Source of the DNA: Candidatus Auribacterota bacterium
GTDB taxonomy: Bacteria > Auribacterota > UBA6266
DNA: 32,000 nucleotides
Reading direction: 5' to 3'
NCBI GenBank assembly: GCA_023136205.1
Contig: JAGLRQ010000063.1
Location: 1 to 32,000 of the forward strand
The notes beneath the pieces were generated by a model. It did not search any database, was not told the origin of the DNA, and saw only the letters and a program-made list of their open reading frames with translations. A program made the translations under genes and the position numbers. Below are positions 3,033 to 31,730 of the stretch, one piece after another (within the stretch, counting starts at the first letter, position 1; each line of letters opens with the position of its first letter).

Positions 3033-3404
3033 ATGAGAAAAGTAAAAAGCGTAAGAGATTTAGAGGTTTATAGAATTGCTTTTGACGTAGCAATGGAGAT
3101 ATATAATCTTTCAAAGGATTTTCCGAAAGAAGAAAAATATTCATTAACTGATCAAATGCGCAGATCTTCCAGATCAATCTGTGCAAATCTTGCGGAAGGT
3201 TGGCGTAAACGAAAATATAAAAAAGTCTTTATAAATAAATTGTCAGATGCGGCACAAGAAGCAGCAGAAACACAGACCTGGTTGGAATTTACCTTAAAAT
3301 GTAACTATATTGATAAAAAGACATTTGAAAAATTAGATGAAAAATACGAACACATATTTGCAATGCTTATAACAATGGAGCGAAAAGCAGATATGTTCTG
3401 TTAA
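3033..3404 (+). CDS. Four-helix-bundle protein (23S rRNA intervening-sequence protein family)
   Basis: Family hallmarks: VRDLEVYRIAFDVAMEIYNLSKDFPKEEKYSLTDQMRRSSRSICANLAEGW. About 120 aa. ATG at 3033 is preferred to the GTG at 3018 that overlaps the upstream stop. Confidence 0.8.
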   Translation: MRKVKSVRDLEVYRIAFDVAMEIYNLSKDFPKEEKYSLTDQMRRSSRSICANLAEGWRKRKYKKVFINKLSDAAQEAAETQTWLEFTLKCNYIDKKTFEKLDEKYEHIFAMLITMERKADMFC

Positions 3405-3592
3405 GCGAGCAAAGCGAGCGGTCGTCCCTCGTCCAAACGAGCAAAGCGAGTAAACGTCCCTCGTCCGAGCGAATGAAATGAGTGGTCGTCCCTCGTCCAA
3501 GCGAGCAAAGCGAGTAAACGTCCCTCGTCCGAGCGAATGAAATGAGTGGTCGTCCCTCGTCCAAGCGAGCAAAGCGAGCGATCGTCCTTCGT
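3404..3592. repeat. Family A tandem array A2 (about 6 units of 32 bp, including an exact 64-bp tandem duplication 3441-3504 = 3505-3568)
   Basis: Read directly. The array begins at the last base of the four-helix-bundle stop codon (TAA 3402-3404) and ends about 20 nt before the next start codon. Confidence 0.9.
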
Positions 3593-5523: not shown

Positions 5524-6162
5524 ATGGACTATGCAGAATTCAAAAAGAGGTTTTCGAAACTTCCGCTTATCGTCGGAAGAGACGCTGTCCAGCTTGAAAA
5601 AGCCGGGCAGGCGATGCGTAACCAGCTCAATCGCTGGCAGTCGAAGGGGCTTATTGTCAGGCTCAAAAAAGGCATCTATATGCTTAACAGGGACGACAGG
5701 AGGGTAGAACCAAGCAGAATCTTCCTTGCGAACCGGCTTTATGGCCCGTCATATGTCAGCTTAGAGTTTGTGTTAAATTTTTACGGGCTTATCCCTGAGC
5801 GCGCGGCTGATGTGACTTGTGTCACGACAAAAAAAACCGCGCGATTTATAAATGAATTCGGGACTTTTATCTACCAGCATATCAAGCCGGATGCCTTCAG
5901 GGGATTTAAGTCGGCGAAGGATGAGGCTGGTTTGCCGGTATTCATTGCCGAGCCGGAAAAAGCGGTTGTGGATTTTATCTATTTGAATTTATCAAAATTC
6001 GCGAAGCCGGAAAAAGAGCAGTTCGCGCAGTCTTTTCGGTTCCAGAATATGGAAAAATTAAGCGCGAAGAAGATTATGTTTTACGCGAGCCTTTTCAGTA
6101 ACCGGAAACTTCTCTCTGCCGCTAAGGAATTTTGCGTGTTTATTAAGGAAAACAAGAGATGA
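5524..6162 (+). CDS. abiEi: AbiEi-family antitoxin / wHTH transcriptional regulator (type IV TA)
   Basis: N-terminal wHTH pattern (...QLNRWQSKGLIVRLKKGIYML), about 210 aa. A 4-nt ATGA overlap links it to a downstream AbiEii-type gene. Confidence 0.75.
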   Translation: MDYAEFKKRFSKLPLIVGRDAVQLEKAGQAMRNQLNRWQSKGLIVRLKKGIYMLNRDDRRVEPSRIFLANRLYGPSYVSLEFVLNFYGLIPERAADVTCVTTKKTARFINEFGTFIYQHIKPDAFRGFKSAKDEAGLPVFIAEPEKAVVDFIYLNLSKFAKPEKEQFAQSFRFQNMEKLSAKKIMFYASLFSNRKLLSAAKEFCVFIKENKR

Positions 6163-6962
6163 TCGAAGTATTAAGACAGCAGTATAAAGATGAAATGTCC
6201 GCCGAGGATAAGGTCAACCGTGTCCGCGAGTTCCTCCAGATTATCGTGCTAAAGGCTCTGTACGAAAAGGATTATTTTGAGAAAGTCGCTTTTACCGGTG
6301 GAACGGCGCTCAGGGTGCTTTACGGCCTCAGGAGGTTTTCTGAGGATCTTGACTTTTCGCTTGTCTCCAGGAGCGGTTATGACTTTAAGCTGTTGAATGA
6401 GGAATTGCTCCGCGAGTTTAAGTTAAACGGGCTCCACGCCAATTCAAAACCAAAAGCCGAAAAAACTGTCCACAGCATGATGATCAAATTTCCGGGGCTG
6501 TTAAACGAATTAGGGCTTTCCGCTTTTAAAGAGCAGAACCTTTCCGTAAAATTTGAGGTAGACACAAATCCGCCAAAGGGAGGTAAGCTTGAGAATACGG
6601 TTGTCAACAAGGCGTTTATCCTGAATATTAAGCATTTTGATCTGTCGTCGCTCCTGGCGACGAAACTGCATGCGTGCTTTTTCAGGAAATATACAAAGGG
6701 CAGGGATTTTTATGACCTTCTCTGGTATGCGGGTAAGGGCATCAAACCGAATTTGCCGCTGTTTAATAATGCGATAGAACAAACGCAAGGCCGTTCGTCG
6801 GCCATCACAAAGGATAATTTGAAGGCATTTATCACGGATAGGATCGAAAAGGTTGATTTTGAGGCCGCGAAAAAAGACGTCGAGCGGTTTCTCGAGGACA
6901 AGAGCGAACTCAAGCTTTTTAAAAAAGAGGTATTTGAGGCCGCTGTTTCTGGAGTTTGCTAA
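6159..6962 (+). CDS. abiEii: AbiEii/AbiGii-family nucleotidyltransferase toxin (DUF1814)
   Basis: Motif FTGGTALRVLYGLRRFSEDLDF (GGTAL...R.S.D.DF) and a downstream KGRDFYDL motif. Confidence 0.8.
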   Translation: MIEVLRQQYKDEMSAEDKVNRVREFLQIIVLKALYEKDYFEKVAFTGGTALRVLYGLRRFSEDLDFSLVSRSGYDFKLLNEELLREFKLNGLHANSKPKAEKTVHSMMIKFPGLLNELGLSAFKEQNLSVKFEVDTNPPKGGKLENTVVNKAFILNIKHFDLSSLLATKLHACFFRKYTKGRDFYDLLWYAGKGIKPNLPLFNNAIEQTQGRSSAITKDNLKAFITDRIEKVDFEAAKKDVERFLEDKSELKLFKKEVFEAAVSGVC

Positions 6963-8140
6963 TAAGGGTGTCTTCCTTGTTTAAAAAATTATTTTTAACG
7001 TATATTATTTGTTTTTTATTTTCATCTTCTCCTCTTTTTGCCGATATTCTTTGCGGCAAAACATATCAGCAAACCCTTCATGAATATATAGCCCGGGCTA
7101 AAAGCTCAATTGTAGTCGCGATGTACTTCATTATTTTGGAGCCGGGAGGCAAAGGCCCAATCAATGAATTGGTTGATGATCTTGTAGATGCTGAAAAGCG
7201 CGGTGTTGATGTCAGGGTGATTTTGGAAGATTCAAAGTTTAAAGAAAATCGTCTTGCTTATCAAAAATTAAAAGAAAACGGTGTTAATGTATATTTTGAT
7301 ACTCCCGAACATCTTTTACATGTAAAGGGTGTTGTTGTTGATGACAGGTATGTCTTTATAGGCAGTGCAAACTGGTCAAGGGCGGCAATAGAAGATAATT
7401 ATGAAGTTACATATTTTGAGGATTCTTCTCGCGATGCTATTGCTTTTAAGCAGTATGTCGAGAAAATCCCGTTTCAGGATAAAGATATGTTTCTACCTTC
7501 ATTTGAAGGTGTGGTTATTTCTTCGGATTTCCTTCTTTTGCCTGAAACAGGCCGCAGTCTTCTTAAGAGCCGGGCTGTAAAGCAGTTAGATCTTTATTTG
7601 TTGTTACGCAAGATACAGTATGAGAACGGAGAGGTTAGTTTTAGTGTTGATTATGATGTTTTGGCTAAAGCAATGGGTTATACCGTTCGCGGTAAGTTAG
7701 GTAAATACCGTAATCAGCATCATTACTTCTACGAAAGGATACATCGCTCATTAGCTCGTCTCAGGCGTTATGGCCTTATTGATTATAAAAAAGGGGTAGT
7801 TTCCTTAAATCTTAAAGATAATCTCTCTATAGTAATTCCCTTTGAATACTGGGATTATCCCGGGAAGCTCTCTATGCGGGCTAAGTATATGTATTTGATT
7901 TGTCTGTACGAAGCCGGCCGTTCCAGCCGGTATCCCTGCTGGTTTCGCAGCCAGAAGGATATGGCAAAACTTTATGGTATAAGTGATACTACCATTTCTT
8001 TAGGCCTTCTGGAGCTTGAGGAGAAGGGTATAATCGAGGTTTTGAGGGACAGGCCAACTCCCCCCGACTTTTCCAACAGGAAAGCCAATGTATATAAAAT
8101 GCTCGGTTTGCCTCAAAAAACAACTGATGTCCCCATTTAA
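6956..8140 (+). CDS. Secreted or membrane-anchored PLD-family (single HKD, Nuc-like) protein with two C-terminal winged-helix domains
   Basis: HKD motif HVKGVVVDDRYVFIGSANWS (7329-7388). N-terminal hydrophobic leader FKKLFLTYIICFLFSSSPLFA. The C-terminal half has two Rep/DnaD-like wH units (LDLYLLLRKIQ...LARLRRYGLI and KYMYLICLYEA...MAKLYGISDTTISLGLLELEEKGII). There is no ATG start; TTG at 6956 or TTG at 6977 after AAGGG. Confidence 0.65.
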   Translation: MLIRVSSLFKKLFLTYIICFLFSSSPLFADILCGKTYQQTLHEYIARAKSSIVVAMYFIILEPGGKGPINELVDDLVDAEKRGVDVRVILEDSKFKENRLAYQKLKENGVNVYFDTPEHLLHVKGVVVDDRYVFIGSANWSRAAIEDNYEVTYFEDSSRDAIAFKQYVEKIPFQDKDMFLPSFEGVVISSDFLLLPETGRSLLKSRAVKQLDLYLLLRKIQYENGEVSFSVDYDVLAKAMGYTVRGKLGKYRNQHHYFYERIHRSLARLRRYGLIDYKKGVVSLNLKDNLSIVIPFEYWDYPGKLSMRAKYMYLICLYEAGRSSRYPCWFRSQKDMAKLYGISDTTISLGLLELEEKGIIEVLRDRPTPPDFSNRKANVYKMLGLPQKTTDVPI

Positions 8141-8277
8141 CTCGTCCCCACGTCCCACGTCCAAGCGAGTGCAACGAGCGATCGTCCCACGTCCTTCGTC
8201 CCTCGCGTCCCACGTCCAAGCGAGTGAAACGAGCGCTCGTCCCTCGTCCCCACGTCCCACGTCTTTCCGTCCCTCGT
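8141..8277. repeat. Family A array A4 (heptad-expanded variant)
   Basis: Starts 1 nt after the PLD stop codon: CTCGTCC CCACGTCC CACGTCC AAGCGAGTGCAACGAGCGAT CGTCC CACGTCC TTCGTCC ..., in the same orientation as A1-A3. Confidence 0.85.
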
Positions 8278-8305
8278 TTCTGTGGTCTAACTCATTTTTT
8301 ATGTA

Positions 8306-8334
8306 TTGCAATTTAGTTATAACTAAGTTATACT
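8306..8334 (+). promoter_or_regulatory. Sigma70-type promoter with a palindromic operator; predicts a leaderless transcript for the second AbiE pair
   Basis: TTGCAA (8306-8311), a 17-nt spacer, then TATACT (8329-8334). The ATG at 8341 lies only 6 nt after the -10 box, with no SD. The spacer contains the perfect 12-bp palindrome TAGTTATAACTA (8314-8325). Confidence 0.5.
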
Positions 8335-8340
8335 TCATAT

Positions 8341-9129
8341 ATGAATAAAGAAATTTACAGCATATTGCAAGTAAGGGAGCTGTTCCATCTTGAGTTCTTA
8401 CGCTGGCTAAGTCGTAAAATTAAGTCCGAATTCTATGCTCTCAAAGGGGGAACGAACCTGAGATTTTTCTTTAAAAGCTTCCGTTATTCAGAAGATATGG
8501 ATCTGGATGTGAATACGATTCCCGTAGAAAAGCTAAAAGACATTGTCATGGAAATCTTAAACGCCAGGTCATTTATAGACAATCTGAGGACACTTAATAT
8601 TGTCCAAATCATTCCGCCTAATATCGCAAAGGCCAAGCAGACGCAAACAACCCAGCGTTTCAAGATTCATCTTATTACATGTTCAGGGGAAGATCTTTTT
8701 ACTAAGGTTGAGTTTTCACGGCGAGGGAGGAGAGGCTCAGTTGCCGTTCATCCCATATCTGATACAATCCTGCGGTTATATAAGCTGGCGCCGCTGGTGG
8801 TTCCGCATTATGACATTCATTCCGCGGTGTCACAAAAGATCGATGCCCTTGCCGCCCGCGCGGTGACCCAGCCCCGCGATATTTTTGACCTATTTATATT
8901 AAGTTCTCAATATGATGCTCCGGAAGGTAAGCAAACTAAGTATACAGCTCAAATAGCCAAGGCTCACGAAAACATATTCACAATCTCGTTTGAACAATTT
9001 CGAGACACGGTTGTTTCATATCTGTCAGCTGAAGATCAAGCGGCCTATGGCAATCCTCCTATGTGGGATGAAATAAAATTGAAAACAGCGCAATTTTTAG
9101 AAGAAATAAGGGACTGCAAACATGTCTAG
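8341..9129 (+). CDS. abiEii: AbiEii-family nucleotidyltransferase toxin (second copy, divergent)
   Basis: LKGGTNLRFFFKSFRYSEDMDLDV motif and a later PRDIFDL motif. Confidence 0.75.
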   Translation: MNKEIYSILQVRELFHLEFLRWLSRKIKSEFYALKGGTNLRFFFKSFRYSEDMDLDVNTIPVEKLKDIVMEILNARSFIDNLRTLNIVQIIPPNIAKAKQTQTTQRFKIHLITCSGEDLFTKVEFSRRGRRGSVAVHPISDTILRLYKLAPLVVPHYDIHSAVSQKIDALAARAVTQPRDIFDLFILSSQYDAPEGKQTKYTAQIAKAHENIFTISFEQFRDTVVSYLSAEDQAAYGNPPMWDEIKLKTAQFLEEIRDCKHV

Positions 9130-9730
9130 ACAGAATATATTGGTTTATATAAAACAGTTAAACCGCCCGGTTTTTACGACGAGTGAAGTTATGGCCTTGT
9201 CCGGGAAATCACCGTCCACCATCACGCAATCTCTGAATTATCTGCAAAAACAGGGATTGCTTATCAAAGTTCAGCGGGGAATATGGGCCGAGGCCGACAG
9301 CCGGATTAGCCCGTACAGCATCATCCCTTTTTTAACGCCTCGGCACCGGGCTTATGTTTCATTTGTCAGTGCTTTGCATCTGCATGGGATGATTGAACAG
9401 ATTCCTCAGGTGATTACCCTGGCCTCAACGTCTCATACCAGGACCGTTTATACAAAAATGGGGACGTTTGCAATCCATCAGATAGCGCCGCAATTCTTTA
9501 AGGGGTTTGATTGGTATCACGGGGATGGGAATTTTCTGATTGCCCAACCGGAAAAGGCCCTGGTGGACAGCCTATATCTCTCAGCGCACAAAAAAAAGCA
9601 ATTCGGCTTTTTCCCGGAAATGTCCTTTCCAAAGTCGTTTAGCTTCGCCAGAGCACGGAAGTGGGTGAAATGTATTTCCATTCCGAGTGTGAGGCTATAT
9701 GTTGAGAAAAAGTTAATTGAGTTAAGTTAG
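9122..9730 (+). CDS. abiEi: AbiEi-family antitoxin / wHTH regulator (second copy, downstream of its toxin)
   Basis: N-terminal wHTH (FTTSEVMALSGKSPSTITQSLNYLQKQGLLIKVQRGIWA), about 200 aa, with an 8-nt overlap onto the upstream AbiEii gene. Confidence 0.7.
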   Translation: MSRQNILVYIKQLNRPVFTTSEVMALSGKSPSTITQSLNYLQKQGLLIKVQRGIWAEADSRISPYSIIPFLTPRHRAYVSFVSALHLHGMIEQIPQVITLASTSHTRTVYTKMGTFAIHQIAPQFFKGFDWYHGDGNFLIAQPEKALVDSLYLSAHKKKQFGFFPEMSFPKSFSFARARKWVKCISIPSVRLYVEKKLIELS

Positions 9731-9876
9731 CCCGCGAACAAGGGTAAAGCCTGATTGTAGATACTGCCGCTCCATGGATAAATCTGCGGCTTACCCACAG
9801 AGCTTGGATAACCCTTTGGGTTAACCACACTATCCACAATTCTACTACCACTATTTTTTGCTTTCTTCTTCTTAAC

Positions 9877-10132
9877 GAGATAGTTCGAAGCGAAGCGTAG
9901 CCTCCCCCGAGGGGACGAGATACTAACAACGAGATACGGCTTCTAAGCTTTTTGTTTTTTTTGCTTCTAACGAGATACGATTCACGAGCTACGAGATACG
10001 GCTCTTAAACGAGATACGGCTTTTAGGATACTGTTTTTAATTCGTCCAAGCGAGTAAAACGAGCAATCGTCCCACGTCTTCCCGTCCCACGTCCCAGCGA
10101 GTGAAACGAGCGGCCGTCCTTCGTCCCTCGTC
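9877..10132. repeat. Composite junction module C2-A5
   Basis: C2 (9877-10040): GCGTAGCCTCCCCCGAGGGGACGAGATAC, then four ACGAGATACGGCTYYTAR units. A5 (10041-10132): family A units in the same orientation as the others. Confidence 0.8.
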
Positions 10133-10259
10133 TCTTCCCAACACCTATCTTTCCTATAGACTATAAGCTCATAAATATGCTTTAATTTCTCTCAGTTTAC
10201 TATATACTACAACGAAGGTATATCGTCTTATTCTATGTGTAAAATTGAGGAGGTGTCAA

Positions 10260-10553
10260 ATGAGAAATAAATCAATATATGTTCAATTGAAAGATGCTAA
10301 GTTTAAGAGTTTGCTTGGACTTTACAAAGTCGACAGAATAGCCATTTTTGGCTCGTATGCTAAAAGTAAACAGCGGCGAAAGAGTGATATTGACTTCTTA
10401 GTCGAATTTAAAAAAGGAGCAGATCTTTTAGACCAGGTAGGATTAAAGCTCGATTTAGAAAAGTTGTTGTCTAAAAAGGTTGATGTTGTAACACCTAAAT
10501 CTTTGAGTAAATATATTAAAAAGAAAGTAATAAAAGAGGCGGTGTATTTATGA
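10260..10553 (+). CDS. mntA: MNT-type nucleotidyltransferase antitoxin
   Basis: ATG at 10260 after GAGGAGG. Motif IFGSYAKSKQRRKSDIDFLVEF (GS...SDxD). ATGA overlap with the downstream HEPN gene. Confidence 0.8.
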   Translation: MRNKSIYVQLKDAKFKSLLGLYKVDRIAIFGSYAKSKQRRKSDIDFLVEFKKGADLLDQVGLKLDLEKLLSKKVDVVTPKSLSKYIKKKVIKEAVYL

Positions 10554-10891
10554 GTAAAGATTATAAGGTATATTTACATCATATTCTTGATGCAATTAAA
10601 ACTATAGAGAAATACATCAAAGGACTCAGTGAAAATGACTTTTATAAAAATAAGCTTATTCAAGATGGGGTGATCAGAAATCTTGAAATAATAGGAGAAG
10701 CTGCTAAAAATGTGCCTAAAGAGATACAGAATGAATATTCCCACATTGAGTGGAAGGCAATATCAGGCATGAGGGATGTTCTTATTCATGATTATTTTGG
10801 TGTTGATCTGGAACGAGTTTGGGGAGTTTTGGTAAATAGAATTTCACAATTAAAAAAAGATATATCAGGGATTATTAAAAATAAGAGTTAG
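10550..10891 (+). CDS. hepT: HepT (DUF86/HEPN) toxin
   Basis: HEPN Rx4-6H motif (MRDVLIHDY) plus RNLEIIGEAAKN. About 113 aa, paired with MNT. Confidence 0.8.
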   Translation: MSKDYKVYLHHILDAIKTIEKYIKGLSENDFYKNKLIQDGVIRNLEIIGEAAKNVPKEIQNEYSHIEWKAISGMRDVLIHDYFGVDLERVWGVLVNRISQLKKDISGIIKNKS

Positions 10892-10895
10892 ATTT

Positions 10896-11219
10896 AAACG
10901 AGATACTGCTTTTTACTCTTTTTCTATCTGGTGACGTGGTGACTTGCAACTGATGACTTTTTATCTTGGCAACTATTTCTATCTTTTAAACTGGTGACCT
11001 GGCAACTTTTCCACCTTGCAACTGTGGACTAATTTATTCGTCCCACATCCGAGCGAGTGAAACGAGCGCTCGTCCTTCGTCCCCACGTCCCACGTCCAAG
11101 CGAGTGAAACGAGCGGTCGTCCTTCCATCCCTCACGTCCCACGTCCAAGCGAGTAAAACGAGCGATCGTCCTTACGTCCCACGTCCTTCCGTCCATCACG
11201 TCCCACGTCCTCCCGTCCC
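10896..11219. repeat. Composite junction module C3-B2-A6
   Basis: C3 fragment AAACGAGATACTGC (10896-10909). B2 (10921-11030) carries the core GGTGACTTGCAACTGATGACTTTTTATCTTGG. A6 (11038-11219) is the longest heptad-expanded family A array. Confidence 0.85.
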
Positions 11220-11312
11220 TTGACTTTCGCCGATAAATATGGTCTAATTTCCCTTTGATTATTTACGAGATAGTGTCTTAAAGTGGTAAATAAATAGGCC
11301 GTGGCTCTATTT

Positions 11313-11390
11313 ATTCTATCTGGTGCCTTGGTGACTGGTGACGTGGTAACTGTTCTATCTTGTGACGTGGTGACTTGCAACTGGTGACTT
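11313..11390. repeat. Family B module B3
   Basis: TTCTATCTGGTGCCTTGGTGACTGGTGACGTGGTAACTGTTCTATCTTGTGACGTGGTGACTTGCAACTGGTGACTT. The 22-nt core GGTGACTTGCAAYTGRTGACTT is shared with B1 and B2. Confidence 0.8.
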
Positions 11391-11445
11391 GAATAAATCA
11401 GACCTGTCCCCATTTATTCTGATTTATCAAAAAGAGGTTTTACCG

Positions 11446-12494: not shown

Positions 12495-13532
<1,038 letters not shown>

Positions 13533-13535
13533 TAC

Positions 13536-13621
13536 GGTAATCGTCAATCGGTGACGGCTAAAAAGACGTAACCGAAAAACGATAACCGATACGGGCATCG
13601 TAACCGAAAAACGATAAACGA
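13536..13621. repeat. Left direct repeat of the four-helix-bundle cassette (family D; a 32-nt-period array continues to 13653)
   Basis: GGTAATCGTCAATCGGTGACGGCTAAAAAGACGTAACCGAAAAACGATAACCGATACGGGCATCGTAACCGAAAAACGATAAACGA. CGTAACCG recurs at 13567, 13599 and 13631. Confidence 0.9.
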
Positions 13622-13653
13622 TACGGGTTGCGTAACCGAAAGACGAATAAATA

Positions 13654-14043
13654 GTGGAAAAAAAGATCACAAGTTTCAGAGACTTAGATGTTTATCAAGG
13701 AACTTATGCTTCAATGTTAAAAGTAATGAAGGAAATCGTTCCAAAGTTACCGGAACGTGAGAAATATGATTTAAAAGATCAGCTTAGTAGATCAAGTAAA
13801 TCCATTCCAAGGCTAATAGCTGAAGGATATGCAAAGAAACATCAAAAAGCAGGTTTTCAAAAATATATTGATGATGCAATGGCTGAATGTAATGAGACTG
13901 TAGTGAGTCTTTGTCAATCAAGAGATATTTATCCTGAAAATGTTGATATTAATTTGTGTGAAGAGTTAATAGATGATTACGATAAAGCTGGCCGTCAATT
14001 ATACAAGCTAGGTCAGGCATGGAATACATTTAAGAAAAGGTAA
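13654..14043 (+). CDS. Four-helix-bundle protein (23S rRNA intervening-sequence protein family), second divergent copy
   Basis: GTG start. FRDLDVYQGTYASMLKVMKEIVPKLPEREKYDLKDQLSRSSKSIPRLIAEGY matches the family pattern. Confidence 0.75.
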   Translation: MEKKITSFRDLDVYQGTYASMLKVMKEIVPKLPEREKYDLKDQLSRSSKSIPRLIAEGYAKKHQKAGFQKYIDDAMAECNETVVSLCQSRDIYPENVDINLCEELIDDYDKAGRQLYKLGQAWNTFKKR

Positions 14044-14130
14044 TCGTCAATCGGTGACGGTGACGGCCAAATAGACGTAACCGAAAAACGATAACCGATA
14101 CGGGCATCGTAACCGAAAAACGATAAACGA
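14039..14130. repeat. Right direct repeat of the four-helix-bundle cassette (family D)
   Basis: Near-identical to 13536-13621, with an extra TGACGG hexamer. It starts 2 nt upstream of the cassette stop codon TAA (14041-14043), which lies within the repeat. CGTAACCG occurs at 14076 and 14108 (32-nt spacing). Confidence 0.9.
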
Positions 14131-14147
14131 AAAACCTAGGAGCTTAT

Positions 14148-15206
14148 ATGGAAAAAAATTCTAAAATATACATAGCCGGCCACGATGGCCTGGTCGGTTC
14201 CGCCCTTACAAGAAAATTAAAAGCATCTGGTTATCAGAATATAACTACAAGAACCCTTAAAGAGCTTGATCTTACACGACAGAAAGACGCCGAAGATTTT
14301 TTTGAGAAAGAAAAACCCGAATATGTATTCTTAGCCGCGGCTAAAGTAGGCGGCATACTCGCCAACAGCACCTATAAAGCGGAATTCATATACCAGAATA
14401 TAATGATTGCCGCGAATGTAATACATTCAAGCTATAAATTTGGTGTTAAAAAACTGCTTAATATGGGTTCATCCTGTATATATCCAAAATTAGCGCCGCA
14501 ACCGTTAAAAGAAGAATATCTTTTGACCGGAGAGTTAGAACCTACAAACGAACCTTATGCGATTGCCAAGATTTCAGCAATAAAACTGTGCGGATATTAT
14601 AATGAGCAATATGGAACAAATTTTATCTCCGTTATGCCCACTAACCAATATGGCCCAAATGATAATTTTAACCTGAAAACATCACATGTTTTACCCTCTA
14701 TGTTAAGGAAGTTTCACTTAGCAAAATTATTATCAGAAGGCAAGTATGATGATATACTCAGCGATTTAAATCTTCCCCCTGAATCTCAAATCTCAAATCT
14801 CAAATCCGTTGACAGTTTGCTTGCTGATGTTGGCATAGCTGCTCAATCTATTACTCTATGGGGAAGCGGGAGCCCCTACAGAGAATTTCTCTACGTTGAT
14901 GATACTGCAGAAGCATGTGTTTTTTTAATGCAAAAATATGACGCCAAAGAAATTGGCGAATTTGTGAACATTGGGTCAGGTAAGGATATTCAACTTAAAG
15001 AACTTGCTAATTTAATAAAACAAATTGTGGGATTTAAAGGTGAAATACAATGGGATACTGCAAAGCCCGATGGTACGCCGAAGAAGCTTTTGGATGTTGA
15101 GAGAATGAATAAATTGGGGTGGAAGGCAAAGGTTAGGTTGGAGGATGGGATTCGGATGGTGTATGAGGGTTACGTGACAAAAAGTACTGAACTCCGACGA
15201 AATTAA
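14148..15206 (+). CDS. fcl: GDP-L-fucose synthase (GDP-4-keto-6-deoxymannose 3,5-epimerase/4-reductase)
   Basis: KIYIAGHDGLVGSAL, GSSCIYPK, YAIAKIS and KPDGTPKKLLD. It carries an extra segment between HVLPSMLRKFHLAK and ITLWGSG. Confidence 0.85.
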   Translation: MEKNSKIYIAGHDGLVGSALTRKLKASGYQNITTRTLKELDLTRQKDAEDFFEKEKPEYVFLAAAKVGGILANSTYKAEFIYQNIMIAANVIHSSYKFGVKKLLNMGSSCIYPKLAPQPLKEEYLLTGELEPTNEPYAIAKISAIKLCGYYNEQYGTNFISVMPTNQYGPNDNFNLKTSHVLPSMLRKFHLAKLLSEGKYDDILSDLNLPPESQISNLKSVDSLLADVGIAAQSITLWGSGSPYREFLYVDDTAEACVFLMQKYDAKEIGEFVNIGSGKDIQLKELANLIKQIVGFKGEIQWDTAKPDGTPKKLLDVERMNKLGWKAKVRLEDGIRMVYEGYVTKSTELRRN

Positions 15207-31109: not shown

Positions 31110-31166
31110 AGCCGCCAAATACACCGAAAGACACCGAGAAAAGAGTAAAAACTACAAATAAATAGT
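31110..31166. repeat. 57-bp direct repeat, copy 2 (orphan copy of the exosortase 3' end)
   Basis: AGCCGCCAAATACACCGAAAGACACCGAGAAAAGAGTAAAAACTACAAATAAATAGT. An in-frame stop lies just upstream, so it is not part of a live ORF. Confidence 0.9.
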
Positions 31167-31193: not shown

Positions 31194-31263
31194 TTTTTCG
31201 GTGCAATTCGGTGTATTCGGTGGCTAAAAGAAGGTTTGTATCTGTATCAGTGCAATTTAGCAT
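31194..31263. repeat. Left direct repeat of the GxxExxY cassette (family E)
   Basis: TTTTTCGGTGCAATTCGGTGTATTCGGTGGCTAAAAGAAGGTTTGTATCTGTATCAGTGCAATTTAGCAT, with internal approximately 9-nt ATTCGGYG units. Confidence 0.85.
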
Positions 31264-31283: not shown

Positions 31284-31676
31284 ATGAGAATTGCCCAAAA
31301 GAATATTTTGAATAAAGATCTAAGCGATAAAATTATTGGGGCCGCTCTTAATGTATATAACATATTGGGGCGTGGCTTCTTAGAGAAAGTGTATGAAAAC
31401 GCGTTATGTCTTGAGTTAAAAAGATCCAATATTCCCTATGAATGTCAGAAGCAAATAAAAGTGTTGTACCGGGAACAAATGGTAGGAGATTATATTTCTG
31501 ATATTGTTGTCGATAATAAAATTATTTTAGAAGTTAAAGCAACGCTTGAAACCCCGGGTTACCATGAAGCTCAGATACTCAATTATCTAAAAGCAACAGG
31601 GTTTAATTTGGGATATTTGTTAAACTTTGGGAGTAAAGACAAACTGTATTTTAAACGATTTGTTTTTTCGGTGTAA
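31284..31676 (+). CDS. GxxExxY protein (PD-(D/E)XK-like small protein family)
   Basis: ATG at 31284. The motif GFLEKVY fits GxxExxY, then DIVVDNKIILEVKA (a D..E.K nuclease-like core). About 130 aa. Confidence 0.8.
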   Translation: MRIAQKNILNKDLSDKIIGAALNVYNILGRGFLEKVYENALCLELKRSNIPYECQKQIKVLYREQMVGDYISDIVVDNKIILEVKATLETPGYHEAQILNYLKATGFNLGYLLNFGSKDKLYFKRFVFSV

Positions 31677-31730
31677 TTCGGCGTATTCGGAGGCTAAAAA
31701 AGTTTGTATCTGTATCGGTACTTTCAGCAT
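31664..31730. repeat. Right direct repeat of the GxxExxY cassette (family E)
   Basis: TTTTTCGGTGTAATTCGGCGTATTCGGAGGCTAAAAAAGTTTGTATCTGTATCGGTACTTTCAGCAT, offset 470 bp from the left copy. It overlaps the last codons and the stop of the GxxExxY CDS. Confidence 0.85.

What the first reader, a model, noticed from the sequence alone, without database searches (positions are those of the whole stretch)
13536..14130. Direct-repeat-bracketed four-helix-bundle cassette splits the gmd-fcl pair
gmd (ending 13532) and fcl (starting 14148) are normally adjacent or overlapping. Here they are separated by a 503-bp unit made of the four-helix-bundle ORF plus one copy of an 84-90 bp repeat. The repeat copies are at 13536-13621 and 14039-14130, and differ mainly by an extra TGACGG.

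Both copies start GGTAATCG.... The TAA in the right copy is the live stop codon. The left copy looks like the tail of a previous cassette or the original target. This is the footprint expected from insertion by recombination at the repeat, or from tandem amplification. No recombinase gene is present in the window.
Basis: seen in the sequence. Interest (0 to 1): 0.65.

Follow-up and report, generated by a model that had tools for sequence, protein, structure and literature searches.

The report
IVS-like four-helix-bundle cassette inside gmd–fcl operon
A small gene of the family found inside ribosomal-RNA "intervening sequences" sits between two sugar-synthesis genes, flanked by two copies of a hairpin-forming repeat; relatives show this element comes and goes, which points to an undescribed class of mobile hairpin cassettes living inside ordinary operons.

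Summary
Copies at 13536-13621 and 14039-14130 are about 97% identical, 503 bp apart, and bracket a 129-aa ORF between gmd and fcl.

The ORF is a PF05635/TIGR02436 "23S rRNA intervening-sequence" four-helix-bundle protein under strong purifying selection.

The repeat is not a passive target. Each copy is a self-folding hairpin built from two complementary arm types. In 47 of 71 related loci these arms instead lie one on each side of the ORF and form a long stem enclosing it. That stem shows covariation: 95.6% of cells paired, 7 pairs with compensatory changes, 0/500 shuffles as high.

The arms travel with the ORF into many unrelated operons, about 90% co-oriented with the host genes. None lies in rRNA.

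My best reading is an IVS-like cassette and its ORF-less derivatives, rearranged by recombination between modules. The stems probably act as double-stranded RNA in the operon transcript, with RNase III the likely processor. That step is inferred, and the mobility mechanism is unknown. DGR, integron, REP/RAYT and assembly artefact were tested and rejected.

The parts
12495..13532 (+). gmd (GDP-mannose 4,6-dehydratase), upstream host gene; stop TAA at 13530-13532
   Evidence: PF16363 E 1.8e-158; gene called 345 aa in the source contig
13536..13557 (+). Left module, UP-type (G/T-rich) arm GGTAATCGTCAATCGGTGACGG; the CCCGTAT core has been deleted relative to relatives
   Evidence: Alignment to the L103/L105/L006 modules; pairs with 13567-13588 in the MFE fold
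13535..13588 (+). Left ORF-less hairpin (UP arm, 9-nt loop CTAAAAAGA, DN arm)
   Evidence: strand folding of 13533-13653: -34.9 kcal/mol, z -3.94, 0/200 shuffles as stable
13567..13653 (+). Left DN-type (C/A-rich) array: 32-nt units at 13567-13598, 13599-13630 and partial 13631-13653, with DN cores GATACGGGCATC (13588-13599) and GATACGGGTTGC (13620-13631)
   Evidence: TRF period 32, 2.6 copies; cores match the conserved DN core of 47 related loci
13654..14043 (+). Four-helix-bundle gene (129 aa, GTG start; the ancestral ATG is mutated to ATA; no Shine-Dalgarno)
   Evidence: PF05635 E 1.5e-17, TIGR02436 E 1.4e-14; AF2 pLDDT 89 with four helices, best PDB 2RLD TM 0.72-0.85; dN/dS 0.03-0.10
14039..14066 (+). 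Right module, UP-type arm GGTAATCGTCAATCGGTGACGGTGACGG (contains the ORF's stop codon; carries the extra TGACGG)
   Evidence: can pair either with 14076-14096 (local hairpin) or with the upstream DN units across the ORF, all at -22 to -23 kcal/mol
14076..14130 (+). Right DN-type array: unit 14076-14107 (core GATACGGGCATC at 14097-14108) and partial unit 14108-14130
   Evidence: fold of 14036-14147: -26.7 kcal/mol, z -2.69
14138..15206 (+). Shine-Dalgarno AGGAG (14138-14142) and fcl (GDP-L-fucose synthase, 14148-15206), downstream host gene
   Evidence: PF01370 E 1.6e-61; homologues named GDP-L-fucose synthase

Best explanation
The 503-bp unit is a member of a large, apparently undescribed family of IVS-like cassettes in Omnitrophota-type bacteria. 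Each cassette is a PF05635 four-helix-bundle gene that travels with two complementary arm sequences. One is a G/T-rich 'UP' arm (core GAAGCCCGTATCG). The other is a C/A-rich 'DN' arm (core CGATACGGGCATC). In the canonical form the order is UP-ORF-DN, and the arms form a stem of 15 to 40 bp that encloses the ORF, as in ORF-bearing 23S rRNA intervening sequences. Loss of the ORF leaves UP-loop-DN hairpins of 75-130 nt, which also populate operon spacers. In the window lineage the ORF lies between two such ORF-less hairpins. That is why the flanks read as an 85-92-nt direct repeat. The two copies were recently homogenised or duplicated, since they share a private deletion. Recombination between them would give the solo-hairpin allele seen in L103, and unequal exchange would give the expanded arrays seen in L105. 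The cassette has no promoter or terminator of its own and is read as part of the gmd-fcl transcript. There the arms can form either two local hairpins or two nested stems that bracket the ORF. I infer that these double-stranded RNA stems are the functional part. RNase III is the likely processor, which would segment or tune the polycistronic mRNA and limit translation of the SD-less 4HB ORF. SHOWN: family identity, the arm complementarity and covariation, co-orientation, purifying selection on the ORF, and site polymorphism. INFERRED: action at the RNA level, RNase III cleavage, and what moves the element.
For: Family and fold. The flanks of homologues are complementary and enclose the ORF in whole-cassette MFE folds (L010 -42, L013 -57, L019 -37 kcal/mol). 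Across 71-74 loci the median flank duplex is -45 kcal/mol against -32 for control genes in the same contigs (Mann-Whitney p 1.9e-7), and 34/74 have z<-3. 47/71 loci have both cores in the canonical order with fixed geometry. RNAalifold independently finds the 15-bp core stem, with 7 pairs showing compensatory changes. Pair counting gives 95.6% paired against 22-41% when slid, and 0/500 shuffles reach the observed value on any of the five measures. The arms are conserved across unrelated insertion contexts: mlaF|mlaD, leuC|leuD-like, histidine kinase|sigma54 regulator, T2SSF|T2SSF, GT4|GT2 and others. Neighbours are co-oriented in 53/58 (upstream) and 45/54 (downstream) cases, p 3e-11 and 7e-7. 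Each window copy is a hairpin, z -3.9 and -2.7. Site polymorphism among relatives is shown. Window-type 'module-ORF-module' layouts recur in L105 and L077, with a 39-nt DN-left:UP-right stem in L105. dN/dS is 0.03-0.10. The spacers hold no plus-strand promoter-like or terminator-like site; the only hit there is a weak minus-strand terminator-like match at 14059-14045. A distant 4HB subfamily has its own perfectly complementary 20-nt arms. The precedent is S23p-ORF IVSs, which have a 28-bp terminal stem cut by RNase III (PMC4990558).
Against: No RNA data exist, so RNase III cleavage is purely by analogy. Evidence that selection acts on the sense RNA rather than on DNA is weak. Sense duplexes are only slightly more stable than antisense (Wilcoxon p 0.02). 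G.U outnumbers A.C by 27 to 13 in the core, but they are 57 vs 53 in a wider ungapped register. The loci used for the covariation test were chosen for resemblance to two mutually complementary consensus cores. This inflates the percentage paired, though not the compensatory counts. The window element itself has lost the UP core, so its own ORF-bracketing stem is short (-22 kcal/mol), and it may be a decaying or rearranged copy. Some core positions (A/T at UP 10 / DN 4, and the A.A at UP 3 / DN 11) are often mismatched. 24 of 71 loci lack recognisable cores. No enzyme for mobility was identified.
Confidence: 0.6

Rival explanations
1. A DNA-level mobile element. The arms are hairpin or cruciform recombination sites recognised in trans by a transposase or recombinase encoded elsewhere (REP/RAYT-like, IS200/IS605-like, or hairpin-targeting IS110-like). 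The 85-92-bp duplication is a target duplication made by staggered cleavage at the base of a hairpin. The RNA structure is incidental.
For: Presence, absence and expansion all occur at one site among relatives. ORF-less derivatives resemble MITE/REP biology. The sense-versus-antisense asymmetry is weak, so a DNA structure is not excluded. The 4HB gene's dS (0.32) is well below that of the adjacent gmd (0.82), which suggests exchange of the cassette between strains.
Against: No transposase, integrase or HUH nuclease is in the window or in the flanks of about 100 loci examined by ORF/Pfam sampling. Strong co-orientation with host transcription (p 3e-11) is not expected for a purely DNA-level element unless selection imposes it. 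No target-site duplication or fixed target motif was identified. In L105 the two flanking modules are not near-identical.
Confidence: 0.2
2. No element at all. The 4HB gene is an ordinary resident gene, and the flanks are fast-evolving low-complexity intergenic repeats that duplicate by slippage or unequal crossing-over, without function.
For: The window has many other 32-nt-period arrays in spacers not next to 4HB genes: 1781-1901, 3403-3592, 8142-8277, 11039-11390. The exact family D sequence is absent from 185k species-representative genomes. Arrays vary in copy number between relatives.
Against: The same two arm cores accompany 65-79%-identical 4HB genes in dozens of unrelated operons with fixed geometry and compensatory changes. 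Slippage does not produce conserved inverted complementarity across an ORF.
Confidence: 0.1
3. A remnant of a diversity-generating retroelement. The two repeat copies would be VR and TR, and the 4HB protein would be the accessory protein Avd.
For: The layout of repeat, Avd-like 4HB gene, repeat superficially resembles VR-avd-TR. PF05635 is related to bAvd, and the window's other 4HB gene hits Avd models weakly.
Against: No reverse transcriptase is in the window. The left copy lies outside any ORF, starting 3 nt after the gmd stop. The differences between copies are one 6-nt indel, one T/C and one A/T, not adenine-specific. This 4HB does not hit Avd models. Relatives show hairpin modules, not VR/TR pairs.
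Confidence: 0.02
4. A metagenome assembly artefact that created a false tandem duplication.
For: Two contigs end inside the right copy.
Against: Five contigs from five samples give identical sequence, three of them reading through both copies into fcl. Diverged relatives L105, L006 and L077 have the same architecture with different sequence.
Confidence: 0.02

Closest known systems
ORF-containing 23S rRNA intervening sequences (Leptospira, Coxiella, Xanthomonas, Brucella type)
   Same: They share the protein family (S23p / PF05635 four-helix bundle). The ORF is in sense orientation within a host transcript. It is enclosed by complementary termini that form a long stem (28 bp in Coxiella). The ORF has a poor or absent Shine-Dalgarno. 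Short tandem repeats lie next to the ORF. ORF-less short versions exist, and distribution is sporadic, suggesting mobility (PMC4990558).
   Different: The host transcript here is a protein-coding operon, not 23S rRNA. None of about 100 loci shows rRNA similarity. The elements fill intergenic spacers between coupled genes. ORF-less hairpins are dispersed and tandemly amplified. In the window lineage the ORF lies between two hairpins instead of inside one. The ORF here is under strong purifying selection (dN/dS 0.03-0.10), whereas the Coxiella ORF is reported to be decaying.
REP/BIME elements and their RAYT genes (REPtrons) in proteobacteria (from my own knowledge of the literature)
   Same: Short palindromic repeats sit in operon spacers and are co-transcribed. 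A small gene is flanked by the repeats it is associated with. Many gene-less copies exist.
   Different: RAYT is a Y1 HUH transposase, whereas the protein here is a small helical bundle with no nuclease motifs. The arms are 40-60 nt and imperfect, not 20-40-nt REPs. No RAYT-like gene was found.
Correia (Neisseria) and ERIC/IRU-type MITEs (from my own knowledge; no supporting paper retrieved)
   Same: Hairpins of 100-150 nt bounded by inverted repeats, inserted in intergenic regions, co-transcribed with neighbours. Correia elements are reported to be cut by RNase III, with effects on mRNA level.
   Different: Those elements have no associated 4HB gene, have defined TA target duplications, and occur in unrelated phyla. 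Here an ORF-bearing parent form is abundant.
DGR accessory protein Avd
   Same: A homologous four-helix-bundle fold, and a gene situated between two direct repeats.
   Different: There is no RT, no VR/TR logic, and no hit of this protein to Avd models.
Integron gene cassettes (promoterless ORF plus hairpin-forming attC)
   Same: A promoterless small ORF is associated with an imperfect hairpin-forming repeat. It is co-oriented with external transcription, and cassettes can be gained or lost.
   Different: There is no intI. Cassettes are scattered singly in many operons rather than in one array. The arms flank the ORF on both sides and pair across it.

Membership tests
PF05635 / TIGR02436 four-helix-bundle (S23p, '23S rRNA intervening sequence protein') family | Protein scores above the curated family threshold | tested here: met
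   PF05635 64.1 bits against a cut-off of 33.8; TIGR02436 54.2 bits against 24
PF05635 / TIGR02436 four-helix-bundle (S23p, '23S rRNA intervening sequence protein') family | Four-helix-bundle fold like the solved members 2RLD and 2GSC | tested here: met
   AF2 pLDDT 89, helices 12-31, 40-60, 65-92, 99-128; top Foldseek hit 2RLD, TM 0.72-0.85; phmmer hit 2GSC, E 1e-3
PF05635 / TIGR02436 four-helix-bundle (S23p, '23S rRNA intervening sequence protein') family | Homopentameric ring assembly | not tested
   Only a monomer was modelled
Bacterial rRNA intervening sequence (IVS) | Inserted in a 23S (or 16S) rRNA helix | tested here: not met
   It lies between gmd and fcl. blastn of an E. coli rrn operon against all loci gave no hits, and there is no Rfam rRNA hit in the window
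Bacterial rRNA intervening sequence (IVS) | Complementary termini forming a stem that encloses the element or ORF | tested here: met
   Met for the clade. In the window only a truncated version remains: DN-left:UP-right at -22 kcal/mol, isoenergetic with the local hairpins. The full 39-nt version is present in its relative L105
Bacterial rRNA intervening sequence (IVS) | Excised from the host transcript by RNase III | not testable with these tools
   Needs RNA end-mapping or an in-vitro cleavage assay
Diversity-generating retroelement | Reverse transcriptase adjacent to the TR | tested here: not met
   No RVT-family hit among the window ORFs
Diversity-generating retroelement | VR at the 3' end of a target gene, differing from TR at adenines | tested here: not met
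   The left copy starts 3 nt after the gmd stop. The differences are a 6-nt indel, T/C and A/T
Integron cassette array | intI integrase and attI next to a tandem array of ORF-attC cassettes | tested here: not met
   No integrase in the 32-kb window. Homologous cassettes are dispersed in unrelated operons
Integron cassette array | attC core sites (RYYYAAC ... GTTRRRY) with extrahelical bases | not tested
   No attC model was run
REP/RAYT (REPtron) | Y1 HUH transposase gene flanked by inverted REPs | tested here: not met
   The flanked gene is PF05635, not a Y1 transposase; none was found in the window

The most novel reading that the evidence does not exclude
PF05635 four-helix-bundle proteins are the dedicated partner of their own flanking arms. 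They would bind the cognate stem, as RNA or as a DNA hairpin, and promote spread or maintenance of the cassette and of its ORF-less derivatives. That would define a new class of bacterial mobile element that has no conventional transposase, lives in the spacers of operons, and includes the classical rRNA IVSs as a special case. The GxxExxY cassette in the same window (31284-31676), with its own hairpin repeat, would be a parallel lineage.
Probability: 0.15. Interest if true: 0.9.

Novelty: new variant of a known kind. Interest (0 to 1): 0.62.

Why it matters
Bacterial rRNA intervening sequences and their conserved S23p ORF have been known for about 30 years, yet there is no accepted function for the protein and no mechanism for their spread. 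This locus belongs to a very abundant extra-ribosomal relative. It has dozens of independent insertions into recognisable operons, naturally occurring empty, solo-hairpin, occupied and expanded alleles at one site, and a protein under strong purifying selection. That turns an old puzzle into something testable by comparative genomics, metatranscriptomics and simple biochemistry (RNase III cleavage, protein-arm binding). It also matters practically. These hairpin arrays break metagenome assemblies, confuse gene callers (spurious ORFs at 10979-11413; the 4HB gene called from an internal ATG), and insert potential RNA-processing sites between translationally coupled genes such as gmd/fcl, mlaF/mlaD and kinase/regulator pairs.

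Tried and rejected
1. The genome-contig scan for the 19-mer CGTAACCGAAAAACGATAA found only 3 isolated matches in unrelated taxa, about the chance expectation. So the source species is not among the representatives, and a genome-wide census of family D was impossible.
2. Rfam gave no match, either at gathering thresholds over the whole window or at E<=1 over 13400-14250.
3. The DGR reading was rejected: no RT, no VR in a gene, no A-specific differences.
4. PADLOC and PHROGs gave nothing for this 4HB, so there is no link to a known defence system or phage family.
5. rRNA context: none of the loci resembles rRNA.
6. The first covariation attempt, anchored on my start-codon calls, was abandoned because mis-called starts shifted the arms. 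I re-anchored on the cores.
7. The wobble (G.U vs A.C) and sense/antisense stability tests for RNA-level versus DNA-level selection gave only weak signals. I do not lean on them.
8. Mononucleotide shuffles are a conservative control, because the arms are compositionally complementary (G/T-rich against C/A-rich). I therefore added control genes from the same contigs.
9. Ralph & McClelland 1993 (PMC47033) could not be read, so what is said about it comes via PMC4990558.
10. A literature search for Correia/RNase III retrieved nothing useful, so that comparison rests on my own knowledge.

Full report
OBSERVATION. That gap holds a 129-aa ORF (13654-14043, GTG start) and two copies of an 85-92-nt repeat at 13536-13621 and 14039-14130. 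The copies differ by a 6-nt indel and two substitutions and lie 503 bp apart. The ORF's TAA stop is inside the right copy. The repeat core occurs 5 times in the window against 0.02 expected by chance. The repeat also has an internal 32-nt period. The window comes from contig DAOWCX010000001.1 of MAG GCA_030639325.1. The closest named homologues of the ORF are from Candidatus Omnitrophica MAGs. The same arrangement was assembled identically in five samples. Two contigs break inside the right copy. No recombinase or reverse transcriptase is encoded in the window.

WHAT THE ORF IS. It is a PF05635 / TIGR02436 protein, the "23S rRNA intervening sequence protein" (S23p) four-helix-bundle family. 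AlphaFold gives a confident four-helix bundle (pLDDT 89). Its best structural match is the S23p-family protein 2RLD (TM 0.72-0.85), and the only PDB sequence hit is the Xanthomonas S23p 2GSC. It belongs to a very large, tight clade. The search returned 2,748 proteins, hundreds of them 70-79% identical, and at least 392 loci were confirmed in one metagenome scan. Comparison with its nearest relatives gives dN/dS of 0.03 (L006) and 0.10 (L105), like gmd at 0.06, so the protein is functional. In the window the ancestral ATG has become ATA and the next codon, GTG, is the first possible start. There is no Shine-Dalgarno, whereas gmd and fcl have GGAG/AGGAG.

WHAT THE REPEAT IS. In homologous loci the 4HB gene sits, co-directionally, between coupled operon partners. 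Examples are mlaF|mlaD, the large and small aconitase-type subunits, histidine kinase|sigma54 regulator, two T2SSF genes, and GT4|GT2. There the two flanks are not direct repeats. They are complementary. A G/T-rich upstream arm has core GAAGCCCGTATCG, and a C/A-rich downstream arm has core CGATACGGGCATC. In minimum-energy folds of whole cassettes they pair across the ORF.

Across 74 loci the flank-to-flank duplex is far more stable than for control genes in the same contigs (median -45 vs -32 kcal/mol, p 1.9e-7). 47 of 71 distinct loci carry both cores in the same order and geometry: the UP core ends about 20-24 nt before the start, and the DN core begins about 8-14 nt after the stop.

RNAalifold recovers a 15-bp core stem, with 7 pairs showing compensatory changes. 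Explicit pair counting gives 95.6% pairing against 22-41% when the partner is slid, and 0/500 shuffles reach the observed value on any measure. One caveat applies. The loci were picked by resemblance to complementary consensus cores, which inflates the pairing percentage but not the compensatory changes.

The window's "family D" 32-nt unit is the DN arm, with the core GATACGGGCATC present three times. The GGTAATCGTCAATCGGTGACGG that opens both copies is a UP arm. Each copy is therefore UP-loop-DN, a self-contained hairpin (-34.9 kcal/mol, z -3.9; -26.7 kcal/mol, z -2.7). Such ORF-less hairpins are common in related contigs, for example in the mlaE|mlaF spacer of L010. Their loops appear to retain the last codons of the ORF (AAAAGACG), which suggests they are deletion derivatives of full cassettes; this is read by eye from the sequences, not from a formal alignment.

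THE EMPTY-SITE TEST. The nearest fcl relatives come from the same study.
- L102 (more distant; gmd 64% aa identical): gmd and fcl abut, with a 2-nt gap.
- L103/L104 (gmd 91% aa identical): a 126-nt spacer that is exactly one ORF-less module. It has a UP arm with core GAGACCCGTATCG, the loop TAAAAAAAG and a DN arm, and folds at -39 kcal/mol.
- L105 (gmd 92%, 4HB 93%): hairpin - 4HB - hairpin plus three or four more tandem modules.
- L006 (4HB 98%): DN arm - 4HB - UP arm with an intact core, then a second hairpin, then fcl.

Both window copies share a deletion of the UP core that L103, L105 and L006 lack. They are therefore copies of each other, by duplication or gene conversion. The "module-ORF-module" layout recurs in an unrelated locus (L077). 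11 of 74 loci show direct-repeat flanks of various module orders.

HOW IT PROBABLY WORKS. The cassette has no plus-strand promoter-like or terminator-like site; the only spacer hit is a weak minus-strand terminator-like match at 14059-14045. Across the family it is co-oriented with both neighbours (53/58 and 45/54; p 3e-11 and 7e-7). It must therefore be read as part of the host operon transcript.

By homology and architecture the closest precedent is the ORF-bearing 23S rRNA IVS. Its terminal stem (28 bp in Coxiella) is cut by RNase III, and its S23p ORF has a poor ribosome-binding site (PMC4990558). I therefore infer that the arms act as double-stranded RNA in the gmd-4HB-fcl transcript. In the window, two local hairpins and two nested ORF-bracketing stems are isoenergetic at -22 to -23 kcal/mol.

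The steps that are shown are family identity, the conserved covarying stem, co-orientation, selection on the protein, and gain, loss and expansion at this site. The steps that are inferred are RNase III processing, any effect on gmd/fcl expression, and the agent of mobility.

Direct evidence for RNA-level rather than DNA-level selection is weak. The sense-over-antisense stability difference has p 0.02. Core G.U outnumbers A.C by 27 to 13, but there is no bias in a wider register. A DNA-level hairpin element mobilised in trans therefore remains a serious rival.

One further observation supports mobility. Synonymous divergence of the 4HB gene between the window and L105 (0.32) is much lower than that of the adjacent gmd (0.82). 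L006 shares a left array and ORF that are 96% identical overall (the 87-nt array has no mismatches) but an fcl that is only 81% identical. This suggests the cassette is exchanged between strains, although synonymous constraint or a chimeric short contig cannot be excluded.

COMPARISON WITH KNOWN SYSTEMS. It works like an IVS but is not one by location. None of about 100 loci has rRNA similarity. It is not a DGR: there is no RT, no VR in a gene, no adenine-specific differences, and no Avd-model hit. It is not an integron array or a REP/RAYT unit. It matches no Rfam family and no PADLOC defence model. Full-text searches found no description of PF05635 cassettes with complementary arms inside protein-coding operons, nor any paper linking them to Omnitrophota. 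The library does not cover subscription journals.

VERDICT. I classify this as a new variant of a known kind: an IVS-type S23p element living extra-ribosomally in operons, with ORF-less hairpin derivatives. Interest is moderate to high, because it offers many natural insertion and deletion events with which to attack the old question of what IVS elements and S23p proteins do.

Noticed in passing
window 3033-3404 (+), with arrays at 1781-1901 and 3403-3592: A second PF05635/TIGR02436 gene (E 9e-37; only about 30% identical to the first; weak Avd hits) lies between wza-like and wzz-like genes. It is followed by a different 32-nt-period array (GCAAAGCGAGCGATCGTCCCTCGTCCAAGCGA). The same array also sits upstream of wza, so a direct repeat brackets wza plus the 4HB gene. 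No complementary upstream arm was found.
   Followed up: partly
window 31284-31676 (+), repeats at 31194-31251 and 31664-31719, complementary arm at 31110-31141: A GxxExxY / PD-(D/E)XK_3 gene (TIGR04256, E 7e-39) is also bracketed by a direct repeat of about 55 nt (88-92% identical). An upstream arm is 81% complementary over 32 nt, forming a hairpin module. The same 'small ORF between hairpin-repeat copies' design thus recurs with an unrelated protein family.
   Followed up: partly
window 10892-11388: The 500-nt gap between HepT and the PHO4 transporter is filled with C-rich arrays (CGTCCCACGTCC...) flanked by G/T-rich GGTGACGTGG arrays. It yields spurious minus-strand ORFs (10979-11413; a 55-aa gene was called there in the source record). 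In relative L103 the equivalent position upstream of PHO4 holds a distant 4HB gene with its own perfectly complementary 20-nt AT-rich arms, and a further arm copy lies after PHO4.
   Followed up: partly
window 5524-10891: A block of abortive-infection and toxin-antitoxin genes interrupts the polysaccharide locus between wzz and PHO4/gmd. It comprises AbiEi/AbiEii twice, a PLD-like nuclease with an HTH, and MNT/HepT. Repeat arrays lie in its spacers (8142-8277, 9970-10100).
   Followed up: no
window 13654-14043 vs L105 2269-2661 and L006 88-477: Synonymous divergence of the 4HB gene (dS 0.32 to L105, 0.20 to L006) is much lower than that of the flanking genes (gmd dS 0.82; fcl only 81% nt identical in L006). 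This hints at recent exchange of the cassette between strains or at constraint on synonymous sites.
   Followed up: partly
window 13651-13656: The ATG start seen in L105 is ATA here and in L006, so the gene must start at the following GTG without a Shine-Dalgarno. One public gene call instead starts at an internal ATG (109 aa, P0002), which would remove part of helix 1.
   Followed up: yes
L010 3037-3108; L095 4597-4670; L030 2220-3155: ORF-less UP-loop-DN modules occupy other spacers of the same operons that carry a full cassette (for example mlaE|mlaF next to mlaF|4HB|mlaD). They can form tandem series that alternate with ORF-bearing units.
   Followed up: partly
alignment A2 columns 27/108 and 34/101: Two positions inside the conserved stem are habitually unpaired or variable: A.A at UP 3 / DN 11, and A/T combinations at UP 10 / DN 4. 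These could be conserved internal mismatches, a possible recognition feature, rather than noise.
   Followed up: no
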